Shown: positions 588 through 58,142 of the stretch, piece after piece
Layout of the letters: every line of letters starts with the position of its first letter
Position numbering within the stretch: position 1 is the first letter of the stretch
NCBI GenBank assembly: GCA_944386685.1
Contig: CALXCA010000008.1
Coordinates: 198 to 64,197, forward strand
From: an uncultured Clostridia bacterium
GTDB taxonomy: Bacteria; Bacillota; Clostridia; TANB77; CAG-508
Length of the DNA stretch: 64,000 nt
Direction: 5' to 3'
Position numbers and translations under genes: made by a program
The notes under the pieces: model-generated
Databases searched by the model: none
What the model was told of the DNA's origin: nothing
Seen by the model: only the letters and a program-made list of their open reading frames with translations

Positions 588-1682
588 CTACTCTCTTCCA
601 TCTGATTGGTCGTTTTTTATTTTTATATTTAATAGTTTCTCTAAATCAAATACTTTTGTTATATCAAATTCTTTAAGATCGTCTATTCCTCCATTTTTTG
701 CACTACCTCTTACTCCATCTTCCCAATCATAATAGTCAGATAAACTTAGAATTTTATCTACATATGTTTTTGCATATTCATCATCTTTATGTTCAATAAA
801 ATATGGAATTAAAGTTTTTCCAGATGAAAGTGATGCTAAAGCTCTATGATGCCCGTCAATTATATATGTATTACCATTATATTCTAGTGCACAAATATCT
901 CCTAAATTATAATTAAAGCCTTTTTTCTTAATTGATTGTGCTAAACTATCTATTGTAGTTCCGACAGGAGATTTTGCAATTGTATTTATATATGTTTGTG
1001 ATGGTAAAAACATTGCTGTATTTTTCCAATACTTAGGATAATATTTTCCTGTTCTATAATTTTCTTCTCCATCAACTATTATCTGTGCTAATTCTCTAGG
1101 GTTTGAAAATGATGTATCTACTATTAAATCATAATTATCAGGATTTGTTAAGTCTACTCCATATCTTTCTTTATATCTTTCTATTTCTGATAATTTTCTT
1201 TTTCTTGTTTGTTCTATTGCTTCATCTAATGAGTAAAATTTATCTTCTACTCCTCTTGTTTGGTCATTAAATACTCTTTGCCCTGCAATTTTTTCATTTA
1301 CTGTTAATCTTATTGCATAAGATTCTGGTATGTTACTCCATGCTAGTCTAGAATCTATTATATATACATTATTAGGATGTTCTGCTTCATTTATTAATTG
1401 TCCTCTTCTAGCAACTTCACTGTCTACCATTTTGTCTATTCTATTTCTTTTTTCTTTAAAATCTTCGTCTGTTTGTATATCTGTTAAACTTACATTTTTT
1501 CTATCTGGATATGTTCTATAATATTCTTCTTGTATTAATTGCCTAAATATATTTCCAACAGATATAATTTGTACTTTATACCCCATTTTTTCATATTTAT
1601 CTCTTATTAGTTTTACTACTGTTGATTTTCCACTAACTGGTTCTCCAGAAATTGTAATAATTTTGTTTCTTATTTTTTTCAT
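588..1682 (-). CDS. fusion protein: N-terminal cytidylate-kinase-like P-loop domain plus C-terminal ParB/Srx-like domain
   Basis: 364-aa ORF. Walker A ITISGEPVSGKST, Cmk-like blocks (IIDSRLAWSNIP, IRLTVNEKIAGQRV, NYDLIVDTS), then the ParB/sulfiredoxin-type motif YIIDGHHRALAS in the last ~150 aa. Confidence 0.7.
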   Translation of the reverse strand: MKKIRNKIITISGEPVSGKSTVVKLIRDKYEKMGYKVQIISVGNIFRQLIQEEYYRTYPDRKNVSLTDIQTDEDFKEKRNRIDKMVDSEVARRGQLINEAEHPNNVYIIDSRLAWSNIPESYAIRLTVNEKIAGQRVFNDQTRGVEDKFYSLDEAIEQTRKRKLSEIERYKERYGVDLTNPDNYDLIVDTSFSNPRELAQIIVDGEENYRTGKYYPKYWKNTAMFLPSQTYINTIAKSPVGTTIDSLAQSIKKKGFNYNLGDICALEYNGNTYIIDGHHRALASLSSGKTLIPYFIEHKDDEYAKTYVDKILSLSDYYDWEDGVRGSAKNGGIDDLKEFDITKVFDLEKLLNIKIKNDQSDGRE

Positions 1683-1872
1683 ATTAAATTTTCTTCCTTT
1701 CTTAGGCGTATTTAGTTATGAAAATAATTTCTTTCAAACTATTTACATTCCTTTTTTTAAGGTATAAATTCGATTTAAAATTATTTTTTCTACTTTTTTC
1801 TGCATTTATTTTACCATATTAACAATATTTTGTAAATTGTTTTTTGAACAATTTTATGCATGTTTGCTACTA

Positions 1873-2098
1873 GGGTCGGTCCCAACACGAAAAAGGGACC
1901 GACCCCAACACAAAAAGGGACCGACCCCAACACAAAAAGGGACCGACCCCAACACAGAAAGGGACCGACCCCAACACAAAAAGGGACCGACCCTAACACA
2001 AAAAGGGACCGACCCCAACACAAAAAGGGACCGACCCTAACACAAAAAGGGACCGACCCCAGTAGCCGACCCTAACACGAAAAAAAGAGAACCGGCAC
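1873..2098. repeat. GC-rich 22-bp tandem array (8 direct units of GGGACCGACCCCAACACAAAAA, one inverted core, terminal GAGAACCGGCAC box)
   Basis: Direct units start at 1895, 1917, 1939, 1961, 1983, 2005, 2027 and 2049. The inverted core GGGTCGGTCCC at 1873-1883 can form an 11-bp hairpin with unit 1. GAGAACCGGCAC lies at 2087-2098. Confidence 0.95.
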
Positions 2099-2116
2099 TT
2101 TTTTTACCTTAATTAT

Positions 2117-6472: not shown

Positions 6473-6679
6473 ATTAAAATTTTTATATATTAATAATTGC
6501 ATAAATTTCTCGACTCAATACGGAAATATAAGAATTTCTAAAATAATTTTATGGCACCCTTTCACTTAGTCCTCGCTACGCTCGACGCGAACATTTTCCA
6601 TAAAATTAATTTAAGAAATTCTAAATTTCCTCCAATCATATTCGAAATTTATTTATTATTAATATATAAAAATTTTTAA
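6473..6679. repeat. 207-bp palindromic (MITE-like) element: ~82-bp imperfect inverted arms around a 43-nt GC-rich core
   Basis: The left arm 6473-6554 and right arm 6598-6679 are reverse complements with a few mismatches. Both termini read ATTAAAA(A)TTTTTATATATTAATAAT. The core is CACCCTTTCACTTAGTCCTCGCTACGCTCGACGCGAAC. Confidence 0.8.
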
Positions 6680-6720
6680 TGAACTGAAACAACTCGCATA
6701 AAGTCTGAAAAAGTAATTTT

Positions 6721-11647: not shown

Positions 11648-12301
11648 TCAAATTAGAATATTTTTACTTATTAAATGCTTTTCAAATTCTTTGCAAAATT
11701 GTTTTATAATTAACATATTATCTATATTTATGTTAAACTCTTTTTTTATTGATGTAGCAATATTTTTTATGTCTTCTGGGAATTGTTGTTTATTTGTATT
11801 TATTCCTATTCCAATTACTAAATATTTTACTCTATCTTTTAATATTTTTGATTCTGTTAAAATTCCACCTATCTTTTTACCATTATATACAATATCATTT
11901 GGCTCTTTTATTTGTAAATCTATTTGGTATAAATTTTTAAATACTCTTAAAATAATTTTAGCAATTTCAATTGTTATTCCATCTAATTTTTGGTATTTAC
12001 AATCTGTTTCTATATAAAGCGAAAATGCTATATTATTATCTTCATCTGTCTGCCAAATTCTACCATGTGTTCCTTTTCCATTTGTTTGTTTGTCTGCAAT
12101 TATTATCAAACCATTTTCTATATTATTTTGTTCTATTCTTCTATGTATTTCTAATTGTGTAGAATCTATTATTTTATAATGTTCTATTTTGTTTCCTATT
12201 TTTTTTTGTTCTACTCGTATAGGTATTTCTGATTGTATTAAATCTATTTTTTTATAATGTTCTAACTTGTTTCCAATATATTTTTTATTCAAATTTATCA
12301 A
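11648..12301 (-). CDS. birA: biotin-protein ligase-like protein (catalytic domain only) with a duplicated N-terminal segment
   Basis: 217 aa. KQTNGKGTHGRIW matches the BPL GRGRxGRxW-type motif. No HTH domain. The N-terminus carries a 2 x 26-aa tandem repeat. The start overlaps the upstream gene by 17 nt. Confidence 0.65.
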   Translation of the reverse strand: MINLNKKYIGNKLEHYKKIDLIQSEIPIRVEQKKIGNKIEHYKIIDSTQLEIHRRIEQNNIENGLIIIADKQTNGKGTHGRIWQTDEDNNIAFSLYIETDCKYQKLDGITIEIAKIILRVFKNLYQIDLQIKEPNDIVYNGKKIGGILTESKILKDRVKYLVIGIGINTNKQQFPEDIKNIATSIKKEFNINIDNMLIIKQFCKEFEKHLISKNILI

Positions 12302-16206: not shown

Positions 16207-16330
16207 GTGCCGGTTCTCTTTTTTCCTTTTTGCTGTTTTCTTGTTGTTATTGGGGTCGGTCCCTTTTCTTTGTTAGGGTCGGTCCCTTTCTTTGTTGGGG
16301 TCGGTCCCTTTCTTTGTTGGGGTCGGTCCC
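16207..16330. repeat. second GC-rich array: GTGCCGGTTCTC box plus 4 units of GGGGTCGGTCCCTTTCTTTGTT
   Basis: The box is at 16207-16218. Cores lie at 16252-16263, 16276-16286, 16297-16308 and 16319-16330, a 22-23 bp period. It is the reverse complement of the 1873-2098 array unit. Confidence 0.92.
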
Positions 16331-16407
16331 TTTTTGTTCCTTTTTCGCTATTATATCAATATTTTTTTTAGATTTCAATATTAATTTTAATTTTTGATAT
16401 TGATACA

Positions 16408-53149: not shown

Positions 53150-53176
53150 AATATTTCCTCCTTTTGGTAATTGGGT

Positions 53177-53231
53177 AATTTGGTGCCGGTTCTCTTTTTG
53201 ACCAGGCAATTTGGTGCCGGTTCTCTTTTTG
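53177..53231. repeat. two direct copies of AATTTGGTGCCGGTTCTCTTTTTG (31-bp period)
   Basis: Copies lie at 53177-53200 and 53208-53231. They carry the same GTGCCGGTTCTC box that flanks the arrays at 2087-2098 (reverse complement) and 16207-16218. Confidence 0.92.
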
Positions 53232-53247
53232 TCCCATTTTTGATATT

Positions 53248-53550: not shown

Positions 53551-53579
53551 ATAATATTAAAGCACTGCTGTTATGTCAA
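53551..53579 (-). promoter_or_regulatory. near-consensus sigma-A promoter downstream of the T-box terminator
   Basis: The minus strand reads TTGACA (53579-53574), 17-nt spacer, TATTAT (53556-53551), about 50 nt upstream of the DUF1653 ATG. Confidence 0.55.
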
Positions 53580-53582
53580 AAG

Positions 53583-53684
53583 TTTGGTCGGTATTTGGGC
53601 AAATGTTTAGGCATTGTTTGGGCATTGTTTGGGCGGTATTTAGACTATTTAAACAAATCTTTGAGCAAATGTTTATATTTGGAC
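53583..53684. repeat. array of about 9 degenerate 10-12-nt units (ATTGTTTGGGC type) directly upstream of the -35
   Basis: GTTTGGTCG GTATTTGGGC AAATGTTTAGGC ATTGTTTGGGC ATTGTTTGGGC GGTATTTAGAC .. followed by the palindrome GACAATATTGTC. Confidence 0.75.
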
Positions 53685-53945: not shown

Positions 53946-54345
53946 ATAGAATAAGTATTTATGTTCAGTTTTGCAATTTAACTAGGTGATAACATAAGTT
54001 ATATTTCGTATTTTTATTTTACAATATTTATTTTATTTTTTATTCGTAATTCTTACTAATATAAAATATAAAAAATTAATTATATAAATATTAATTAATA
54101 ACTTATAGCTATTTAAGCTAAATAATTTTTACTTTCAAACTCTCACCTTCTGTTTGATTCTCTGTAAAGATATTTTATTATTTGTATTGTCCTAGTTATT
54201 ACTTTTATTTTTTTGTTATTATATCACATTTTTTTCATTTTGCAATAGGTAAATCAAAATTTTATTTATATTGTTGATAAATTTAATATAATAATATAAA
54301 TAACTACTCTTTACAAAATTATAAAGAATGTAATAAAATTATAAT

Positions 54346-55053
54346 TTATAAATTATTTATTACTTTAAAAATTAAATTTTTTAATTTTGGTTTTTCTAAT
54401 TCAAAATAATTAAAATATTTTTTTAATATTTCTTCTTCACAATCGAAATACATATTATTTATTGCATGTTTTATGTCATTATGTATAGTATTTATTGGCT
54501 TATTATATTTTATAGATAAAATTGGAAATATTTCTTTTGACAGATTAACATTCCAAATATAGTTTCTACTATAAACTTCATAAATACAATCAATTAAATA
54601 CTGAGTTCCATTATAAGAAAATTTAAAATTTAATTTTGAAAGTTCCTCTGCAATTTTTAATTTTAAATTTAAAAAGCTATATTTATCTACATAATTTGTT
54701 ATTACCTCCACTATCTTTATATTTTCAATTGGATTTATTATATAATCAAATACATAATATTCTTCTTTTATAGTCAATGATTTATAACCAAATCCAACAA
54801 TTGCTATTATCGATTTTCTATATTTATATAATTTTTCATTAAATAAAAATTCAAAAAAATTTAATTTTTTTATATTTATTAAATTTGTATCTAATATTAT
54901 AAGGTCTACTATTTGTTTTTTTTAAAAATATACAGCTTCTTCTAAACTATAAACAACACTGTAAATTTTTACATTCAAATTACTTTGAGAAATACAATTA
55001 ATTATTTTTTTACATTTAAATATATCATTTTCTATAATTAATATTCTAGTCAT
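54346..55053 (-). pseudogene. Spo0A-like response regulator (receiver plus Spo0A_C-type DNA-binding domain) with an in-frame TAA
   Basis: ATG at 55053 after a GGAGGA RBS. The receiver region reads MTRILIIENDIF..DLIILD..YVFDYIINP. The in-frame stop is at 54924-54922 (codon 44). The C-terminal 143 aa resemble Spo0A_C. Confidence 0.6.
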
Positions 55054-55152
55054 TATTTCCTCCTAATTAAATTTGTAATAACTCTTTTTGCTTTTTTAGC
55101 TTTTTTTACTTTTTCTTGATTTTTCCTCTATTTTTCTTTAAAATAATTTTAG

Positions 55153-55181
55153 TTGTAAAGTTAATTTACAATTAGTATAAT
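55153..55181 (+). promoter_or_regulatory. sigma-A-type promoter of the secreted-protein cassette
   Basis: TTGTAA (55153-55158), 17-nt spacer, TATAAT (55176-55181). Confidence 0.55.
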
Positions 55182-55271
55182 TCTATGAGTCTAAACCATC
55201 CTTAAATTAAGTATGGTTTTAGATTAGATGGAAGAGAGAATCAAGCAATAGAATAACGGAGTAAGCATACT

Positions 55272-55733
55272 ATGAACATGAAAAAAAGAAAAAATTTCTT
55301 CATTATTATTCTCACAATAGCTTTGTTTATTACTACTTGCTGTTCTTCAGCATTTGCTGCCGGCGTTGAAACGTGGTATGGTGAATGGGTTCAAGAACCT
55401 GTTATGACTGTTACCAATAACAACCTTACACCTGTAAAAACTATTGGTGTATCTGGCACATTACATGTGGCATGTGGAGTAAGAGGTCGACCTGATCTTG
55501 AGCCTTCCGGATGTCCTCTTGTACAAGTAACAATGCAAATTCGTGATTTAAATGGTAATGTCCTCGCTAGCGGTACCGTTAGAGAAGACGCTTTTTTACC
55601 TCAAATTCACCTCGATTTGCCTGTTACACAGGGTCAAAAGATTCAAATATTTTTTGATGTAAGCAGTGTATCCTACAATCCTAATAGAAACTATAGAATT
55701 GCAGATATCAACTACGCACATGAAATATATTAA
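55272..55733 (+). CDS. secreted protein of unknown function (153 aa), G+C-richer cassette
   Basis: Signal peptide MNMKKRKNFFIIILTIALFITTCCSSAFA|AG, a GGAG RBS, and its own promoter and terminator. It is flanked by a 17/18-bp inverted repeat (55227-55244 / 55771-55788). Confidence 0.65.
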   Translation: MNMKKRKNFFIIILTIALFITTCCSSAFAAGVETWYGEWVQEPVMTVTNNNLTPVKTIGVSGTLHVACGVRGRPDLEPSGCPLVQVTMQIRDLNGNVLASGTVREDAFLPQIHLDLPVTQGQKIQIFFDVSSVSYNPNRNYRIADINYAHEIY

Positions 55734-55791
55734 TCTTTGACTATGTAGTTCACGTCTAAACTCTAATTAATTGATTCTCTCTTCTATCGAA

Positions 55792-55822
55792 GTGGTATTG
55801 CTTTAGCAATACCACTTTTTTT
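55792..55822 (+). terminator. rho-independent terminator
   Basis: GTGGTATTGC-TTTA-GCAATACCAC followed by TTTTTTT. Confidence 0.85.
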
Positions 55823-55880
55823 ATAAATATAAAATTTTAGTACAACTTAAGCAGTATGAATTTTTCTGATATTATATTTT

Positions 55881-57020
55881 TTAGTCATTAAAAAATTCAG
55901 ATTCTTCTCCTCCTATAATTTCACCAGTTGTTGCATCCACAAAGTATTTCTTGTTATAAAATTTTTTTACTGTTTCAATATTTCCATCTTTAGGGATTGT
56001 ATTTTTATCATGTTCAATATTAACAACCCAAACATTTCTTGTTGTATCAGTTGTTTTTAATTCTCCTTTTTCATTAGTTACATTATTTTCTAAACAATAT
56101 ATAAAAATATTCATTTTTTCTATAGACAGTTCAGCGGAAACATTTGAAATTCTTATATTACTAAATTCATTTTCTTTATTTTTAGCAATTTCAATAGCTT
56201 CTTCTTTAGAAATTACAATTGGATTTTTTTCATAATTATCTTCATTTTTCATGCTTATAGAATAAATAATAATATTATCATTATAAACAGAAAAAGCAAT
56301 TGTAGAAATACTTTCTTTATTATAAATATTATTATTATAGACTTTTGCAAAACTTACTTGCCATGAATCATTAGCATATTTCCCTGAAACAATGCTTTGT
56401 TTTTTTGTTTCAACGATTTTATAATTATTGTTTTCCTCAAAAAAGTTTAAATCACTATAAATTTGGGTTGCAATTTCATTAACTTTATCTTCAGAAATTG
56501 TATCACAAACAATATTCTTATCTAAAAATGAATTATCTCCAAAATATTCTAGTTCTCCTGTTTTAGGATTTAAATTAATTAGAATATTTTCAGCTCTTAA
56601 TAAATAATGTATAGAATAATTTGAGTCATATCCTTTTAATAAATTTATTTGCGTAATTGTAGTATTTTCATATCCTAATTTTGTTAATAACTGATTACCA
56701 ATTTCAGTTGCTTTTTCTTCTGATATAAATTCTGATTTTTCATAGTCTTCTATATCTTCTTTTATTATTTTTTCTTCTTCATTTTTACTTAAAATAATCG
56801 GATCTTTCCATATATTCTCATATAAATAATTAACAGCCATTACACCTGTACATCCCATAATAAAGCAACTTGTTAATAAAACAATTTTACAAAGTATGGA
56901 ATGTGATAAAATTTTGCTTTCTTTTTTTGAAAAAGCTTTTTTTATAGAAAGTTCATATGAAAAAGGTTTTTCAATTTCATCCTTTAAAATTTTTTTAATT
57001 TCATCATCAAAATTTTTCAT
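55881..57020 (-). CDS. membrane-anchored putative anti-sigma factor with a large ectodomain
   Basis: 379 aa. It overlaps the upstream sigma gene by 14 nt and has a single TM helix (ILCKIVLLTSCFIMGCTGVMAV). The call rests on position and architecture only. Confidence 0.5.
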   Translation of the reverse strand: MKNFDDEIKKILKDEIEKPFSYELSIKKAFSKKESKILSHSILCKIVLLTSCFIMGCTGVMAVNYLYENIWKDPIILSKNEEEKIIKEDIEDYEKSEFISEEKATEIGNQLLTKLGYENTTITQINLLKGYDSNYSIHYLLRAENILINLNPKTGELEYFGDNSFLDKNIVCDTISEDKVNEIATQIYSDLNFFEENNNYKIVETKKQSIVSGKYANDSWQVSFAKVYNNNIYNKESISTIAFSVYNDNIIIYSISMKNEDNYEKNPIVISKEEAIEIAKNKENEFSNIRISNVSAELSIEKMNIFIYCLENNVTNEKGELKTTDTTRNVWVVNIEHDKNTIPKDGNIETVKKFYNKKYFVDATTGEIIGGEESEFFND

Positions 57021-57582
57021 AACTATTATTTCCTTTCTTAATATTTGTTGTTTCTTGATTAATAATTGTTGATTTTAATTTCTGTCTTGCCCTATATAAA
57101 TGAGTATTTATAGTATTTTCTTTCATTTTTAAAATTTCTTTTATTTCTTTAACAGAATATTCTTCCATATAATATAAGACTACAATAATTCTCTCTTTAT
57201 AATTTAGATTTTTTATTATATCATAAAAGTTTAATTTATTATCCACTTCATTAATATTATTAGTTTTTAAATAATCTAAATTATATTCTTCAATTGAAAC
57301 ATCTTTTTTATATTTTTTTCTATAAATTCTATTACATTTGTTTATTAAAATTTTTATAATCCACTTTTTAAATTTAGTTATATCATTAAGTTTTTTTATT
57401 GATTTATAAGTTTCGATCATTGTTTCTTGAATAGCATCTGATATATCAGCTTCATTTGAAATTCTAGTTTTGGCTATTTTGTATAATTCATCATTTATTG
57501 ATAATATTAATTGTGTAAAAGCCTCTTCATTACCACTTTGAGCACTTAAAATTAATTCTTCCAATTTTCCCTCCTTTATCAT
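57007..57582 (-). CDS. sigma-70 family (ECF-like) sigma factor
   Basis: 191 aa. Region 2 (DAIQETMIETYKSIKKL) and a region 4 HTH (YSVKEIKEILKMKENTINTHLYRARQKLK). An alternative TTG start lies 6 codons in, after AAGGAGGG. Confidence 0.75.
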   Translation of the reverse strand: MIKEGKLEELILSAQSGNEEAFTQLILSINDELYKIAKTRISNEADISDAIQETMIETYKSIKKLNDITKFKKWIIKILINKCNRIYRKKYKKDVSIEEYNLDYLKTNNINEVDNKLNFYDIIKNLNYKERIIVVLYYMEEYSVKEIKEILKMKENTINTHLYRARQKLKSTIINQETTNIKKGNNSYEKF

Positions 57583-57692
57583 TTTTATTGAATACTACAA
57601 ATACATTTATTAAGAGTCCTTTATTTCTTTTTTATATTTCAATTTTTATAAAATTTTTTACTAATTTAAGTTATTTGGATTAACTATTAAGG

Positions 57693-57916
57693 AACAATAG
57701 CGGACTTTTTTAGACATTTTTATGTTTATAACATTTTAAAATCCACGTCATTGTTCGTGCGCCAATTTTACGAAGTAAAATTGTGTGCATCTGTTTGAGC
57801 GAAGCTCTTTTATTGAATAGGAAAAAGCGATTTTTCTTTTGAAAATAAAATTTTTATATTTAAAATTCTATTTTCGCTTTGAGTTGCGAAATCTAAAGTT
57901 TCATATTGTTTCCTAT
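57693..57916. repeat. composite of dispersed intergenic repeat families D, A and C
   Basis: GAACAATAGCGGAC..TCCACGTCATTGTTCGTGCGCC..GTGCATCTGTTTGAGCGAAGCTCTTTTATTGAATAGGAAAAA..ATTTTCGCTTTGAGTTGCGAAATCTAAAGTTTCATATTGTTTCCTAT. Confidence 0.85.
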
Positions 57917-57921
57917 TGTAT

Positions 57922-57990
57922 AAAAAAGCCCTAACATACAAAAATTGTATATTAGGGCGAATAATTCCGCAGTAACACCTAATCTTCGAT
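57922..57990 (-). promoter_or_regulatory. degenerate T-box 3' domain plus terminator, paralog of the ileS leader end
   Basis: The minus strand reads ATTAGGTGTTACTGCGGAATTATTCGCCCTAATATACAATTTTTGTATGTTAGGGCTTTTTT. The 27-nt terminator core is identical to the one at 53734-53760. The tRNA-acceptor-pairing TGGT is changed to TGTT. Confidence 0.5.
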
Positions 57991-58142
57991 TTCATTAATT
58001 CAAAAATATTTTTTTCCTAAATCTTTTATTAGAGTTGAAGTCGCAAATTGCGACTTCAAATATTCGCATTCATTATTACTTAATTGAAAGCAAAATTCAA
58101 TTGGAAAACGCTCAATATATATAAGGATAGTTTATGAAATTT

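What the first reader, a model, noticed from the sequence alone, without database searches (positions are those of the whole stretch)
1873..2098. GC-rich 22-bp iteron-like tandem arrays with a shared GTGCCGGTTCTC box at three loci
Eight head-to-tail units of GGGACCGACCCCAACACAAAAA lie at 1895-2070. An inverted core at 1873-1883 can pair with unit 1 over 11 bp. The array ends in GAGAACCGGCAC at 2087-2098. The reverse complement of the same architecture recurs at 16207-16330: the GTGCCGGTTCTC box, then 4 units of GGGGTCGGTCCCTTTCTTTGTT. The box alone is duplicated at 53177-53231 between DUF1653 and ileS. These arrays are the most G+C-rich sequences in a ~25% G+C genome. They are strictly intergenic and have a 22-bp period, about two helical turns. 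That layout is typical of iterons, centromere-like sites or arrays of protein-binding sites rather than slippage-prone microsatellites. I do not recognise the unit as any described repeat family.
Basis: seen in the sequence. Interest (0 to 1): 0.7.

Follow-up and report, generated by a model that had tools for sequence, protein, structure and literature searches.

The report
REP-like repeat arrays tied to transposase
The GC-rich 22-bp arrays are not iterons or centromeres but local clusters of a genome-wide, strain-variable repeat family of the REP type, whose relatives flank a single-copy tyrosine (Y1) transposase gene in sister genomes, and whose T-rich strand can fold into terminator-like RNA hairpins.

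Summary
There are eight 22-bp units plus one inverted unit and a box at 1866-2098, a box plus four units at 16207-16333, and two boxes at 53183-53225.

The interpretation needs changing. In the closest genome in the GTDB scan, an uncultured Clostridia MAG, the same unit occurs about 250 times in at least 34 intergenic clusters. These are direct arrays, head-to-head inverted arrays, or arms of foldback elements. There, and in another strain, T-rich units lie upstream and A-rich units downstream of a Y1 (IS200-like, RAYT-type) transposase gene. Seven homologous transposases were examined; six carry the same layout with their own core, and one of those cores is the window's "box".

Copy number varies between strains at all three window loci: 5/7/8/11, 2/4/5 and 2/3 units.

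On the T-rich strand the 12-nt core is self-complementary if G·U pairs are allowed. Adjacent direct units therefore form a 12-bp RNA hairpin followed by a U-run (-15.8 kcal/mol), and the opposite strand does not. Arrays read in that sense are found only where a long spacer follows (p=8e-4).

Best reading: a REP/BIME-like family associated with a RAYT-type transposase, possibly doubling as terminators. Iteron and centromere readings are rejected.

The parts
1866..1883 (+). Inner end of array 1: GCTACTA followed by one inverted unit core, GGGTCGGTCCC. With unit 1 it makes a REPIN-like hairpin with an 11-bp stem and an 11-nt loop.
   Evidence: DNA fold -13.9 kcal/mol, z = -5.4. The same junction is present in strains L017, L056 and L058.
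1884..2059 (-). Eight head-to-tail 22-bp units. The + strand reads GGGACCGACCCC-AACACAAAAA. The T-rich strand (GGGGTCGGTCCC-TTTTTGTGTT) is the - strand, which is the sense strand of the flanking genes. The array starts 19 bp after the FabI-like stop codon, counting the box.
   Evidence: The T-sense RNA folds at -101.7 kcal/mol against -76.8 for the other strand. Strains carry 5, 7, 8 or 11 units.
2060..2086 (-). Degenerate unit (cagtagccgaccctaacacgaaaaaaa) linking the array to the box. It contains a GTAG motif. With the last full unit it gives the only hit of the terminator scan in this region.
   Evidence: terminator-like site 2072..2050(-).
2087..2098 (-). Box GAGAACCGGCAC (GTGCCGGTTCTC on the - strand). 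It is the outermost unit of the arm and belongs to a second unit type.
   Evidence: Boxes cap the outer ends of arms in L011, L027 and L036. The same box is the flanking repeat of a different RAYT homologue in L081. It is absent from the orthologous MAG locus L017.
16207..16218 (+). Box GTGCCGGTTCTC at the outer end of array 2, 34 bp upstream of the divergently transcribed 133-aa prepilin-like gene.
16250..16333 (+). Four 22-bp units, GGGGTCGGTCCC-TTTCTTTGTT, with the T-rich strand on +.
   Evidence: Strains carry 2, 4 or 5 units with identical flanks.
53172..53233 (+). Two 31-bp box units (aatttGGTGCCGGTTCTCtttttg). They fill the DUF1653-ileS spacer and read A-sense on the gene strand, ending 33 bp before the ileS ATG.
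   Evidence: Strains carry 2 or 3 boxes. The sister MAG has 5 core units at exactly this place.

Best explanation
The arrays are clusters of a lineage-specific REP-type repeat, comparable to BIMEs and REPINs of Proteobacteria. The repeat belongs to a single-copy Y1 (HUH) tyrosine transposase of the RAYT type that is encoded elsewhere in the genome.

The unit is 22 bp: a 12-nt GC-rich core (GGGGTCGGTCCC on the T-rich strand) plus a 10-nt T-run spacer. The 'box' (GGTGCCGGTTCTC plus a T-run) is a second, related unit type. It usually caps the outer end of an arm.

Shown:
- The family is dispersed in intergenic DNA.
- It has one fixed polarity: T-arm, then centre or RAYT gene, then A-arm.
- Homologous RAYT genes in six of the seven other loci examined carry the same layout with their own cores.
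- The arrays gain and lose whole units between strains.

Inferred:
- The transposase recognises the strand-specific hairpins of inverted units (G·T pairs on one strand, A×C mismatches on the other) and seeds new loci.
- Replication slippage or unequal recombination then expands and contracts the arrays.
- Selection filters orientation. In T-sense RNA two neighbouring direct units pair through 8 G-C and 4 G·U pairs into a 12-bp hairpin followed by U5, that is, an intrinsic-terminator-like signal. Such arrays are therefore kept at the ends of transcription units, while A-sense arrays are tolerated in short spacers next to the following ribosome-binding site.
For: Dispersal:
- A scan of 185,579 species-representative genomes found the two-core pattern in low-GC DNA of only one genome, at 32 loci.
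- About 250 cores lie in roughly 0.3 Mb, and 162 of 188 neighbour spacings are 22 bp.
- The window is 89-99% identical to that genome.

Transposase:
- L010 6497-7303(-) matches Pfam Y1_Tnp at 44.8 bits (cut-off 23).
- Its best NCBIfam hit is REP-associated tyrosine transposase at 51.6 bits, against 16.5 for IS200.
- The HUH histidines and the tyrosine are invariant in 25 homologues.
- Even with a poor model, the fold-search hits are all IS200/IS605 TnpA proteins plus 4er8.

Flanks:
- The order is box-like unit, 4 T-units, promoter-like TGTTATAAT, gene, 6 A-units.
- Another strain has the same layout with 2 T-units.
- The homologue at 74% identity is syntenic with L010.
- Homologues at 51-74% identity are flanked by inverted arrays with cores GGGGTCGGTTCC, GGGACCGGTTCT or GGTGCCGGTTCTC (the window's box) in six loci. 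The seventh, L079, has GGGACCAGGTCCC-type cores upstream and one copy about 290 bp downstream, not a clear inverted array.
- These cores are also dispersed in their own loci.

Polarity: all 19 mixed clusters tallied are T-arm first.

Turnover: strains carry 5/7/8/11, 2/4/5 and 2/3 units. At the ileS site box units are replaced by core units in the MAG.

RNA:
- Two T-sense units fold at -15.8 kcal/mol and A-sense at about -9 to -10.
- The same asymmetry holds in 7 of 8 unit types from different RAYT lineages.
- As single-stranded DNA the direct-repeat hairpin is not significant (-4 kcal/mol).
- Pure T-sense arrays lie 120-401 bp from the next start codon. A-sense arrays lie -26 to 126 bp from it (Mann-Whitney p=8e-4).
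Against: - No RAYT gene lies in the 64-kb window or in the other fetched loci of the MAG. The link to the window's own genome therefore rests on sister strains.
- The NCBIfam RAYT score is below its curated cut-off of 80 bits.
- PDB sequence searches found nothing, and the AF2 model is poor (pLDDT 57.7).
- Canonical REPs are 20-40-nt palindromes with a GTAG or CGTC tag (PMC3733652). Here a single core gives only a 3-4-bp hairpin. The conserved flank is CA(A/G)(C/T)A, and GTAG occurs only in a minority of units.
- Transposition, binding and termination were not observed.
- The raw orientation count (29 against 8) is inflated, because foldback elements present T-sense units from both sides by construction. 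For pure arrays my hand tally from the cluster lists is about 11 against 7-9, which is not significant. The comparison of pure arrays with local GC skew is 13 against 7, also not significant.
- Some arrays sit next to ordinary hairpin terminators (L009, L018).
Confidence: 0.75

Rival explanations
1. The arrays exist primarily as host-selected, copy-number-tunable intrinsic terminators or 3'-end stabilisers built from direct repeats. The transposase association is incidental.
For: - Two T-sense units form a 12-bp G·U-containing hairpin followed by U5.
- The terminator scan hits 2072..2050(-).
- Arrays start 5-55 bp after stop codons.
- The orientation-versus-spacer test gives p=8e-4.
- Five of the seven convergent gene pairs carry inverted arms (L002, L008, L015, L023, L024); L009 has a pure T array.
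Against: - A-sense arrays are common (9 of 26 clusters between co-directional genes).
- The gene flanked by A-sense units downstream is the RAYT itself.
- The hairpin loop is 10 nt and the stem has 4 wobble pairs.
- Some arrays lie beside canonical terminators.
- This reading does not explain the conserved RAYT flanks in other lineages or the foldback elements.
Confidence: 0.3
2. The arrays are iterons, centromere-like sites or an origin: phased binding sites for a replication or partition protein.
For: - The 22-bp period is about two helical turns, and the core is a near-palindrome.
- Array 1 lies next to a gene with a DGHHR (ParB/Srx-like) motif.
Against: - There are at least 34 dispersed clusters in one small genome.
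- No rep or par gene recurs beside them. The neighbour gene gives only kinase-type Pfam hits.
- The cumulative GC skew shows no origin-like switch at the arrays.
- Unit number and even unit type change between strains.
- No copies were found in viral contigs.
Confidence: 0.03
3. The arrays are a neutral minisatellite (VNTR) family with no protein partner. They would be spread by recombination and kept by chance.
For: - Copy number varies in whole-unit steps.
- Arrays show higher-order repeat patterns (L037, L013).
Against: - The 12-nt core is invariant across about 250 copies while the spacers vary.
- The T-to-A polarity is fixed.
- The cores co-vary with RAYT lineage.
- The two arms of each foldback copy co-vary.
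Confidence: 0.08
4. The arrays are arms of foldback or MITE-type elements moved by a DDE transposase. The 22-bp units would then be subterminal transposase-binding sites, as in Tn7 or Mu ends.
For: - Eleven copies of a roughly 155-bp palindromic centre are flanked by inverted arrays and boxes.
- These fold as giant hairpins (dG about -90 kcal/mol, z = -14).
Against: - No DDE transposase with matching ends was seen in the fetched DNA.
- Many arrays have no centre.
- The only gene seen bracketed by inverted arms is a Y1 transposase.
- No target-site duplication was identified.
Confidence: 0.07

Closest known systems
REP / BIME / REPIN sequences with their RAYT (TnpA_REP) transposases in Escherichia, Pseudomonas and Stenotrophomonas (PMC3116915, PMC3733652, PMC5581495)
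   Same: - Short GC-rich extragenic repeats in high copy number.
- They occur singly, as inverted pairs that form hairpins, and as tandem clusters.
- A single-copy, syntenic Y1 transposase gene is flanked by the repeats in inverted orientation.
- Repeat sequence co-varies with transposase lineage.
- Strains differ in copy number.
- They sit at the 3' ends of genes.
   Different: - The unit core is only a 12-nt quasi-palindrome, too short for a stable hairpin on its own.
- The dominant arrangement is a long head-to-tail array (up to at least 13 units) with a strict 22-bp period.
- There is no consistent GTAG or CGTC tag.
- The host is an AT-rich uncultured Clostridia lineage.
- The transposase is about 260 aa with a C-terminal extension and scores below the NCBIfam RAYT cut-off.
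- According to PMC5581495, only RAYT groups 2 and 3 (Proteobacteria) were clearly linked to REPs. Clostridia are mentioned there only for group 1.
Staphylococcus aureus STAR elements (PMC3532100)
   Same: - GC-rich short direct repeats in the intergenic DNA of an AT-rich Firmicute.
- They are interspersed across the genome.
- Copy number varies between strains.
- The consensus T(G/A/T)TGTTG(G/T)GGCCC(C/A) resembles tgttGGGGTCGGTCCC.
   Different: - STAR repeats are separated by spacers of at least 40 bp made of recurring sequence.
- No transposase is known for them, and their function and origin are stated to be unknown.
- Homology to the present units was not tested.
Rho-independent (intrinsic) terminators
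   Same: A GC-rich stem followed directly by a U-run, placed 5-55 bp after stop codons, and orientation-dependent.
   Different: - The stem is made by two direct repeats through G·U pairs rather than by an inverted repeat.
- The loop is 10 nt.
- The units are reiterated.
- Activity has not been tested.
Plasmid or phage iterons and parS-type centromeres
   Same: Direct repeats of about 22 bp at helical phasing.
   Different: There are dozens of loci per chromosome, no linked rep or par genes, and rapid turnover. They are not members of this class.
Streptococcus pneumoniae BOX elements and other bacterial MITEs such as Correia and RUP (from my own knowledge)
   Same: A modular intergenic element with a reiterated middle or arm module, strong secondary structure and a non-autonomous nature.
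   Different: BOX modules are 45-60 bp and unrelated in sequence. MITEs have TIRs plus target-site duplications and depend on DDE transposases.

Membership tests
REP/REPIN-RAYT system | Short repeat dispersed in high copy number in extragenic DNA | tested here: met
   About 250 cores in at least 34 intergenic clusters of the sister MAG, and 3 loci in the window. None lies inside a long ORF.
REP/REPIN-RAYT system | A Y1 (HUH) RAYT gene flanked by the repeats in inverted orientation | tested here: met
   Met in the sister genomes L010 and L078. Six of the seven homologues examined (51-74% identity) show the same layout; L079 is unclear. No RAYT lies in the window itself.
REP/REPIN-RAYT system | Each repeat unit is an imperfect palindrome of 20-40 nt that folds as a stem-loop | tested here: not met
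   The core is a 12-nt quasi-palindrome. A single unit folds at only -1.9 kcal/mol as DNA and -4.6 as RNA. Stable hairpins need two units: an inverted pair gives -13.9 (DNA), and a direct pair gives -15.8 as RNA only.
REP/REPIN-RAYT system | Conserved GTAG or CGTC tetranucleotide tag at one end (PMC3733652) | tested here: not met
   The conserved flank is CA(A/G)(C/T)A. GTAG occurs only in the CAGTAGCC spacer variant, for example at window 2061-2066 and, as its complement, at 1866-1872.
REP/REPIN-RAYT system | RAYT is single-copy and vertically inherited | tested here: inconclusive
   One copy was found in about 0.3 Mb of fetched DNA. The same neighbours (POR subunit and Mur ligase) flank the homologue at 74% identity. 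The whole genome was not available.
REP/REPIN-RAYT system | RAYT binds and cleaves the repeat as single-stranded DNA | not testable with these tools
   This needs biochemistry.
RAYT protein family (NCBIfam NF047646) | Score at or above the curated cut-off | tested here: not met
   51.6 bits against a cut-off of 80. It is still the best hit, ahead of IS200 at 16.5 bits. The Pfam Y1_Tnp cut-off is passed (44.8 against 23).
Iterons / replication origin | A single array next to a rep gene, an AT-rich unwinding element or DnaA boxes | tested here: not met
   There are dozens of loci, no rep gene nearby, and no origin-like GC-skew switch at the arrays.
parS / centromere | Linked parAB genes and few sites per replicon | tested here: not met
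   No par genes recur at the arrays. The neighbour of array 1 gives only kinase-type Pfam hits.
Intrinsic terminator | GC-rich hairpin immediately followed by a U-run, downstream of a stop codon | tested here: met
   Met in silico only. T-sense unit pairs fold at -15.8 kcal/mol and are followed by UUUUU. There is a scan hit at 2072..2050(-), and array 1 starts 19 bp after the FabI-like stop codon.
Intrinsic terminator | Transcripts end there | not testable with these tools
   No transcriptome data were available.
CRISPR | Repeats separated by unique spacers of about 30 bp, and cas genes | tested here: not met
   The spacers are 10 nt and semi-conserved. No cas genes were noted in the parts of the window inspected.
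Known RNA families (Rfam 15) | Match at the gathering score | tested here: not met
   Only tRNAs matched in the window and in 10 loci. Below the threshold there were only generic long-hairpin (plant miRNA precursor) hits.

The most novel reading that the evidence does not exclude
AT-rich gut Clostridia may harbour a large, undescribed branch of RAYT-REP systems (538 homologues of the transposase at E<=1e-10). In this branch the repeat would have evolved into a strand-asymmetric, G·U-dependent module. Two direct copies would make an orientation-specific intrinsic terminator. Arrays would then act as copy-number-tunable terminators (VNTR-like) that a domesticated Y1 transposase seeds after stop codons.
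Probability: 0.3. Interest if true: 0.65.

Novelty: new variant of a known kind. Interest (0 to 1): 0.45.

Why it matters
REP-RAYT systems are the best-studied example of repeats that persist vertically inside bacterial genomes, but they are characterised almost only in Proteobacteria. This case extends the kind to small, AT-rich, uncultured Clostridia, with a different repeat architecture: strict 22-bp head-to-tail arrays of a 12-nt wobble palindrome.

It also gives a family of at least five cognate transposase/repeat pairs on which recognition specificity could be tested. It offers hypervariable loci useful for strain typing in metagenomes. It explains why short-read assemblies of these genomes break at such sites. 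If the wobble-hairpin terminator idea holds, it would show how a selfish repeat becomes a tunable transcription signal.

Tried and rejected
- **Rfam at gathering score**, on the window and on 10 loci: only tRNAs, and no T-box upstream of ileS. With the E-value threshold on a foldback element there were only sub-threshold hits, the strongest to plant miRNA-precursor families.
- **Viral contigs:** no arrays.
- **JGI/ENA metagenome contig scan:** one genuine low-GC hit (L039, orthologous to L036). The other ten are GC-rich contigs (52-76% G+C) and look like chance matches.
- **tRNA-3'-end or att-site idea for the box** (GGCACCA): dropped, because the box is simply another unit type that is interchangeable with the core.
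- **DNA-uptake-sequence idea:** not pursued. I judged tandem 22-bp arrays and the RAYT flanks to fit poorly, but ran no specific test.
- **PDB sequence searches** with the protein and with a 25-sequence profile: no transposase hit.
- **AF2 model:** poor (pLDDT 57.7). The Foldseek hits to IS608, ISDra2 and IS200 TnpA and to 4er8 have weak E-values and count only as support.
- **Replication-strand bias** as the explanation of orientation: pure arrays against local GC skew give 13 to 7, which is not significant and is confounded with gene orientation.
- **Homology between the 133-aa genes** next to the box arrays in L081 and in the window: none.
- **Literature search** for RAYT in Clostridia: only one passing mention (PMC5581495), and one uninformative search.

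Full report
**1. The observation**

The sequence is as described.
- Tandem Repeats Finder reports a 22-bp period at 1881-2061 (8.2 copies, 95% matches) and at 16250-16333 (3.8 copies).
- The 11-mer GGGACCGACCC is exact 13 times, against 0.27 expected from shuffles.
- The box GTGCCGGTTCTC is exact four times, against 0.34 expected even with two mismatches allowed.
- The inverted core at 1873-1883 pairs with unit 1 (DNA hairpin -13.9 kcal/mol, z = -5.4).
- All three loci are intergenic.
- The arrays tie for the highest G+C among 60-bp windows in a 25.7% G+C window.

**2. The family is genome-wide and confined to one lineage**

A scan of one genome for each of 185,579 species, using two cores 22 bp apart, hit low-GC DNA in a single genome. 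This is an uncultured Clostridia MAG (BRZ_HA__bin44), hit at 32 loci. The remaining hits were GC-rich Actinomycetota or Chthoniobacteraceae and look like chance matches.

The window is 89-99% identical to that MAG but is not the same strain. The metagenome-contig scan gave one genuine low-GC hit, and the viral scan gave none.

Printing every cluster showed three architectures:
- pure head-to-tail arrays of 2 to at least 13 units;
- head-to-head inverted arrays with an 11-12-nt centre;
- inverted arrays flanking a palindromic module of about 155 bp (11 copies).

The unit logo from 249 cores is AAAAAG-GGACCGACCCC-A(A/G)(C/T)A(A/C/G)(A/C)AAAA. Of 188 neighbour spacings, 162 are 22 bp.

The box sits at the outer ends of arms (L011, L027, L036 and both window arrays). 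It is interchangeable with the core in two ways:
- At the ileS spacer the window has two boxes where the MAG has five core units.
- In L039 the terminal unit is GGACCGGCAC where the MAG has GGACCGACCC.

**3. The associated gene**

In the MAG, L010 6497-7303(-) encodes a protein with a Pfam Y1_Tnp domain (44.8 bits; cut-off 23). Its best NCBIfam match is REP-associated tyrosine transposase (51.6 bits, below the cut-off of 80; IS200 scores only 16.5).

Read in the sense of the gene, the locus runs as follows: upstream stop codon, box-like GTGCCGATCCC, four T-rich units, a TGTTATAAT promoter-like site, the gene, then six A-rich units. A 98%-identical protein from another sample has the same layout with two upstream units.

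The protein has 538 homologues at E<=1e-10. The HUH histidines and the tyrosine are invariant in an alignment of 25 of them.

I fetched seven further homologue loci. Six show the same polarity with their own cores:

| Locus | Identity to the L010 protein | Flanking core |
|---|---|---|
| L050 (syntenic with L010) | 74% | GGGGTCGGTTC(C/T) |
| L052 | 56% | GGGGTCGGTTCC |
| L054, L080, L082 | 51-53% | GGGACCGGTTCT |
| L081 | 54% | GGTGCCGGTTCTC, which is exactly the window's box |
| L079 | 57% | GGGACCAGGTCCC upstream; only one copy about 290 bp downstream, so the layout is unclear |

Those cores are also dispersed in the neighbouring intergenic DNA of their own loci.

This is the defining layout of REP-RAYT systems (PMC3116915, PMC3733652, PMC5581495). 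The box is best read as a second REP family, whose cognate RAYT type is seen in another organism. Whether the window's genome encodes that second RAYT is unknown.

**4. Turnover between strains**

I used the window's own FabI-like, prepilin-like and DUF1653 proteins to fetch strains with identical proteins. The flanks are identical but the arrays differ:
- Locus 1 has 5, 7, 8 or 11 units. In one strain it has two units plus a different centre of about 200 bp that ends in an inverted box.
- Locus 2 has 2, 4 or 5 units.
- Locus 3 has 2 or 3 boxes.

So the arrays behave as VNTRs. They are real, since they occur in many assemblies, including contigs of about 440 kb. Several short-read contigs end inside arrays.

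**5. Strand asymmetry and a possible function**

On the T-rich strand the core GGGGUCGGUCCC is fully self-complementary if G·U pairs are allowed. On the other strand the same positions are A×C mismatches.
- Two adjacent direct units in T-sense RNA fold into a 12-bp hairpin with a 10-nt loop, followed by UUUUU (-15.8 kcal/mol). A-sense gives about -9 to -10 kcal/mol with broken helices.
- As single-stranded DNA the direct-repeat hairpin is negligible (-4 kcal/mol, not different from shuffles).
- The asymmetry recurs in 7 of 8 unit types from different RAYT lineages, even though the cores differ. The exception is the perfect palindrome of L079.
- By my manual comparison of the cores, the differences between lineages are almost all transitions that keep a pair on the T-rich strand (G·U to A-U, U·G to C-G, G-C to G·U). 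The box has one U×U mismatch.

I also analysed 37 de-duplicated clusters.
- Between co-directional genes, pure T-sense arrays lie 5-55 bp after a stop codon and 120-401 bp before the next start codon.
- A-sense arrays fill short spacers and end -26 to 126 bp (median 27) before the next start codon, often abutting the ribosome-binding site.
- The difference is significant (Mann-Whitney p=8e-4).

This is what would be expected if T-sense arrays terminate transcription and A-sense arrays do not.

Three caveats apply:
- The raw count of gene 3' ends that meet T-sense units first (29 against 8) is inflated, because every foldback is T-first from both sides by construction. All 19 mixed clusters tallied have the order T-arm then A-arm.
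- For pure arrays alone the orientation count is not significant: about 11 against 7-9 by my hand tally from the cluster lists. The comparison with local GC skew is also not significant (13 against 7).
- A strand-specific G·T hairpin could equally serve strand choice by a Y1 transposase.

**6. Rejected readings**

- **Iterons, origins and centromeres.** These are excluded by the number of loci, the absence of linked rep or par genes and the lack of an origin-like skew switch at the arrays. They are also excluded by the replacement of unit number, and even unit type, between strains. The gene next to array 1 (588-1682) has a DGHHR motif but only kinase-type Pfam hits. That adjacency is not repeated at other arrays.
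- **CRISPR.** It does not fit, because the spacers are 10 nt and semi-conserved.
- **Known RNA families.** Rfam finds nothing.

**7. Comparison with what is known**

The system works like REP/BIME/REPIN with a RAYT. Two defining features of canonical REPs were tested and not met:
- A single unit is not a 20-40-nt palindrome.
- There is no consistent GTAG or CGTC tag.

The protein also scores below the curated RAYT cut-off. The library holds no description of such arrays in Clostridia. PMC5581495 mentions Clostridia only for RAYT group 1 and links abundant repeats clearly only to groups 2 and 3. PMC3733652 does not mention Firmicutes.

S. aureus STAR elements (PMC3532100) are the nearest analogue in Firmicutes. 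Their origin is unknown.

**8. Verdict**

I therefore rate this a new variant of a known kind.

| Claim | Confidence |
|---|---|
| RAYT-associated REP-like family | about 0.75 |
| Terminator role of T-sense arrays | about 0.3-0.4 |
| Iteron or centromere | at most 0.03 |

Noticed in passing
L006 3325-3480 (also L002, L008 twice, L009, L011, L016, L027, L030, L036, L038); absent from the window: A palindromic module of about 155 bp sits between the inverted arrays. Its inner 95 nt or so (ATACCTTGTGTGTCGCAACCTAC...GGTCGCTTACGCGGTAT) is almost invariant. Its arms co-vary within each copy, so that every copy is its own perfect palindrome out to the boxes. It has no Rfam family, and its function is unknown.
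   Followed up: partly
window 6476-6680: A second MITE-like palindromic element of about 205 bp, with TIRs TTAAAATTTTTATATATTAATAAT... A 93%-identical copy lies at an unrelated MAG locus (L018 7020-7224). It shares the motif CGCTACGCTC with the 155-bp module.
   Followed up: no
window 54265-58055: A 3.8-kb segment that has no counterpart in the sister MAG (L026). It carries a 191-aa ORF that looks ECF-sigma-like (my reading; no family search was run), a 379-aa ORF, a 153-aa ORF with a signal-peptide-like N-terminus, and a 143-aa Spo0A_C-like ORF. It is a strain-specific indel.
   Followed up: no
window 53577-53641: A separate small array of 11/23-bp TTTGGGC(A/G)-type repeats upstream of the DUF1653 gene. 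GGGCAA/TTGCCC motifs also accompany box units elsewhere (L027, L052, L081).
   Followed up: no
L062, L064, L067 (strain versions of window 16793-17911): In some strains the D-Ala-D-Ala carboxypeptidase gene next to array 2 is reduced to a 120-aa fragment that abuts a serine-recombinase (PF07508) gene. This suggests an element inserted in that gene.
   Followed up: no
L057 2274-2760 (strain version of window 1683-2116): At the FabI locus one strain has only two units, followed by a different AT-rich centre of about 200 bp that ends in an inverted box. It is a different foldback variant at the same site.
   Followed up: no
window 588-1682 (-): A 364-aa protein that joins an N-terminal cytidylate-kinase-like P-loop domain to a C-terminal region with a DGHHR motif reminiscent of ParB/sulfiredoxin-type domains. 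The C-terminal part has no Pfam hit.
   Followed up: partly
window 12114-12290: A 78-bp tandem repeat (2.3 copies, 81% matches) reported by Tandem Repeats Finder. It was not examined.
   Followed up: no
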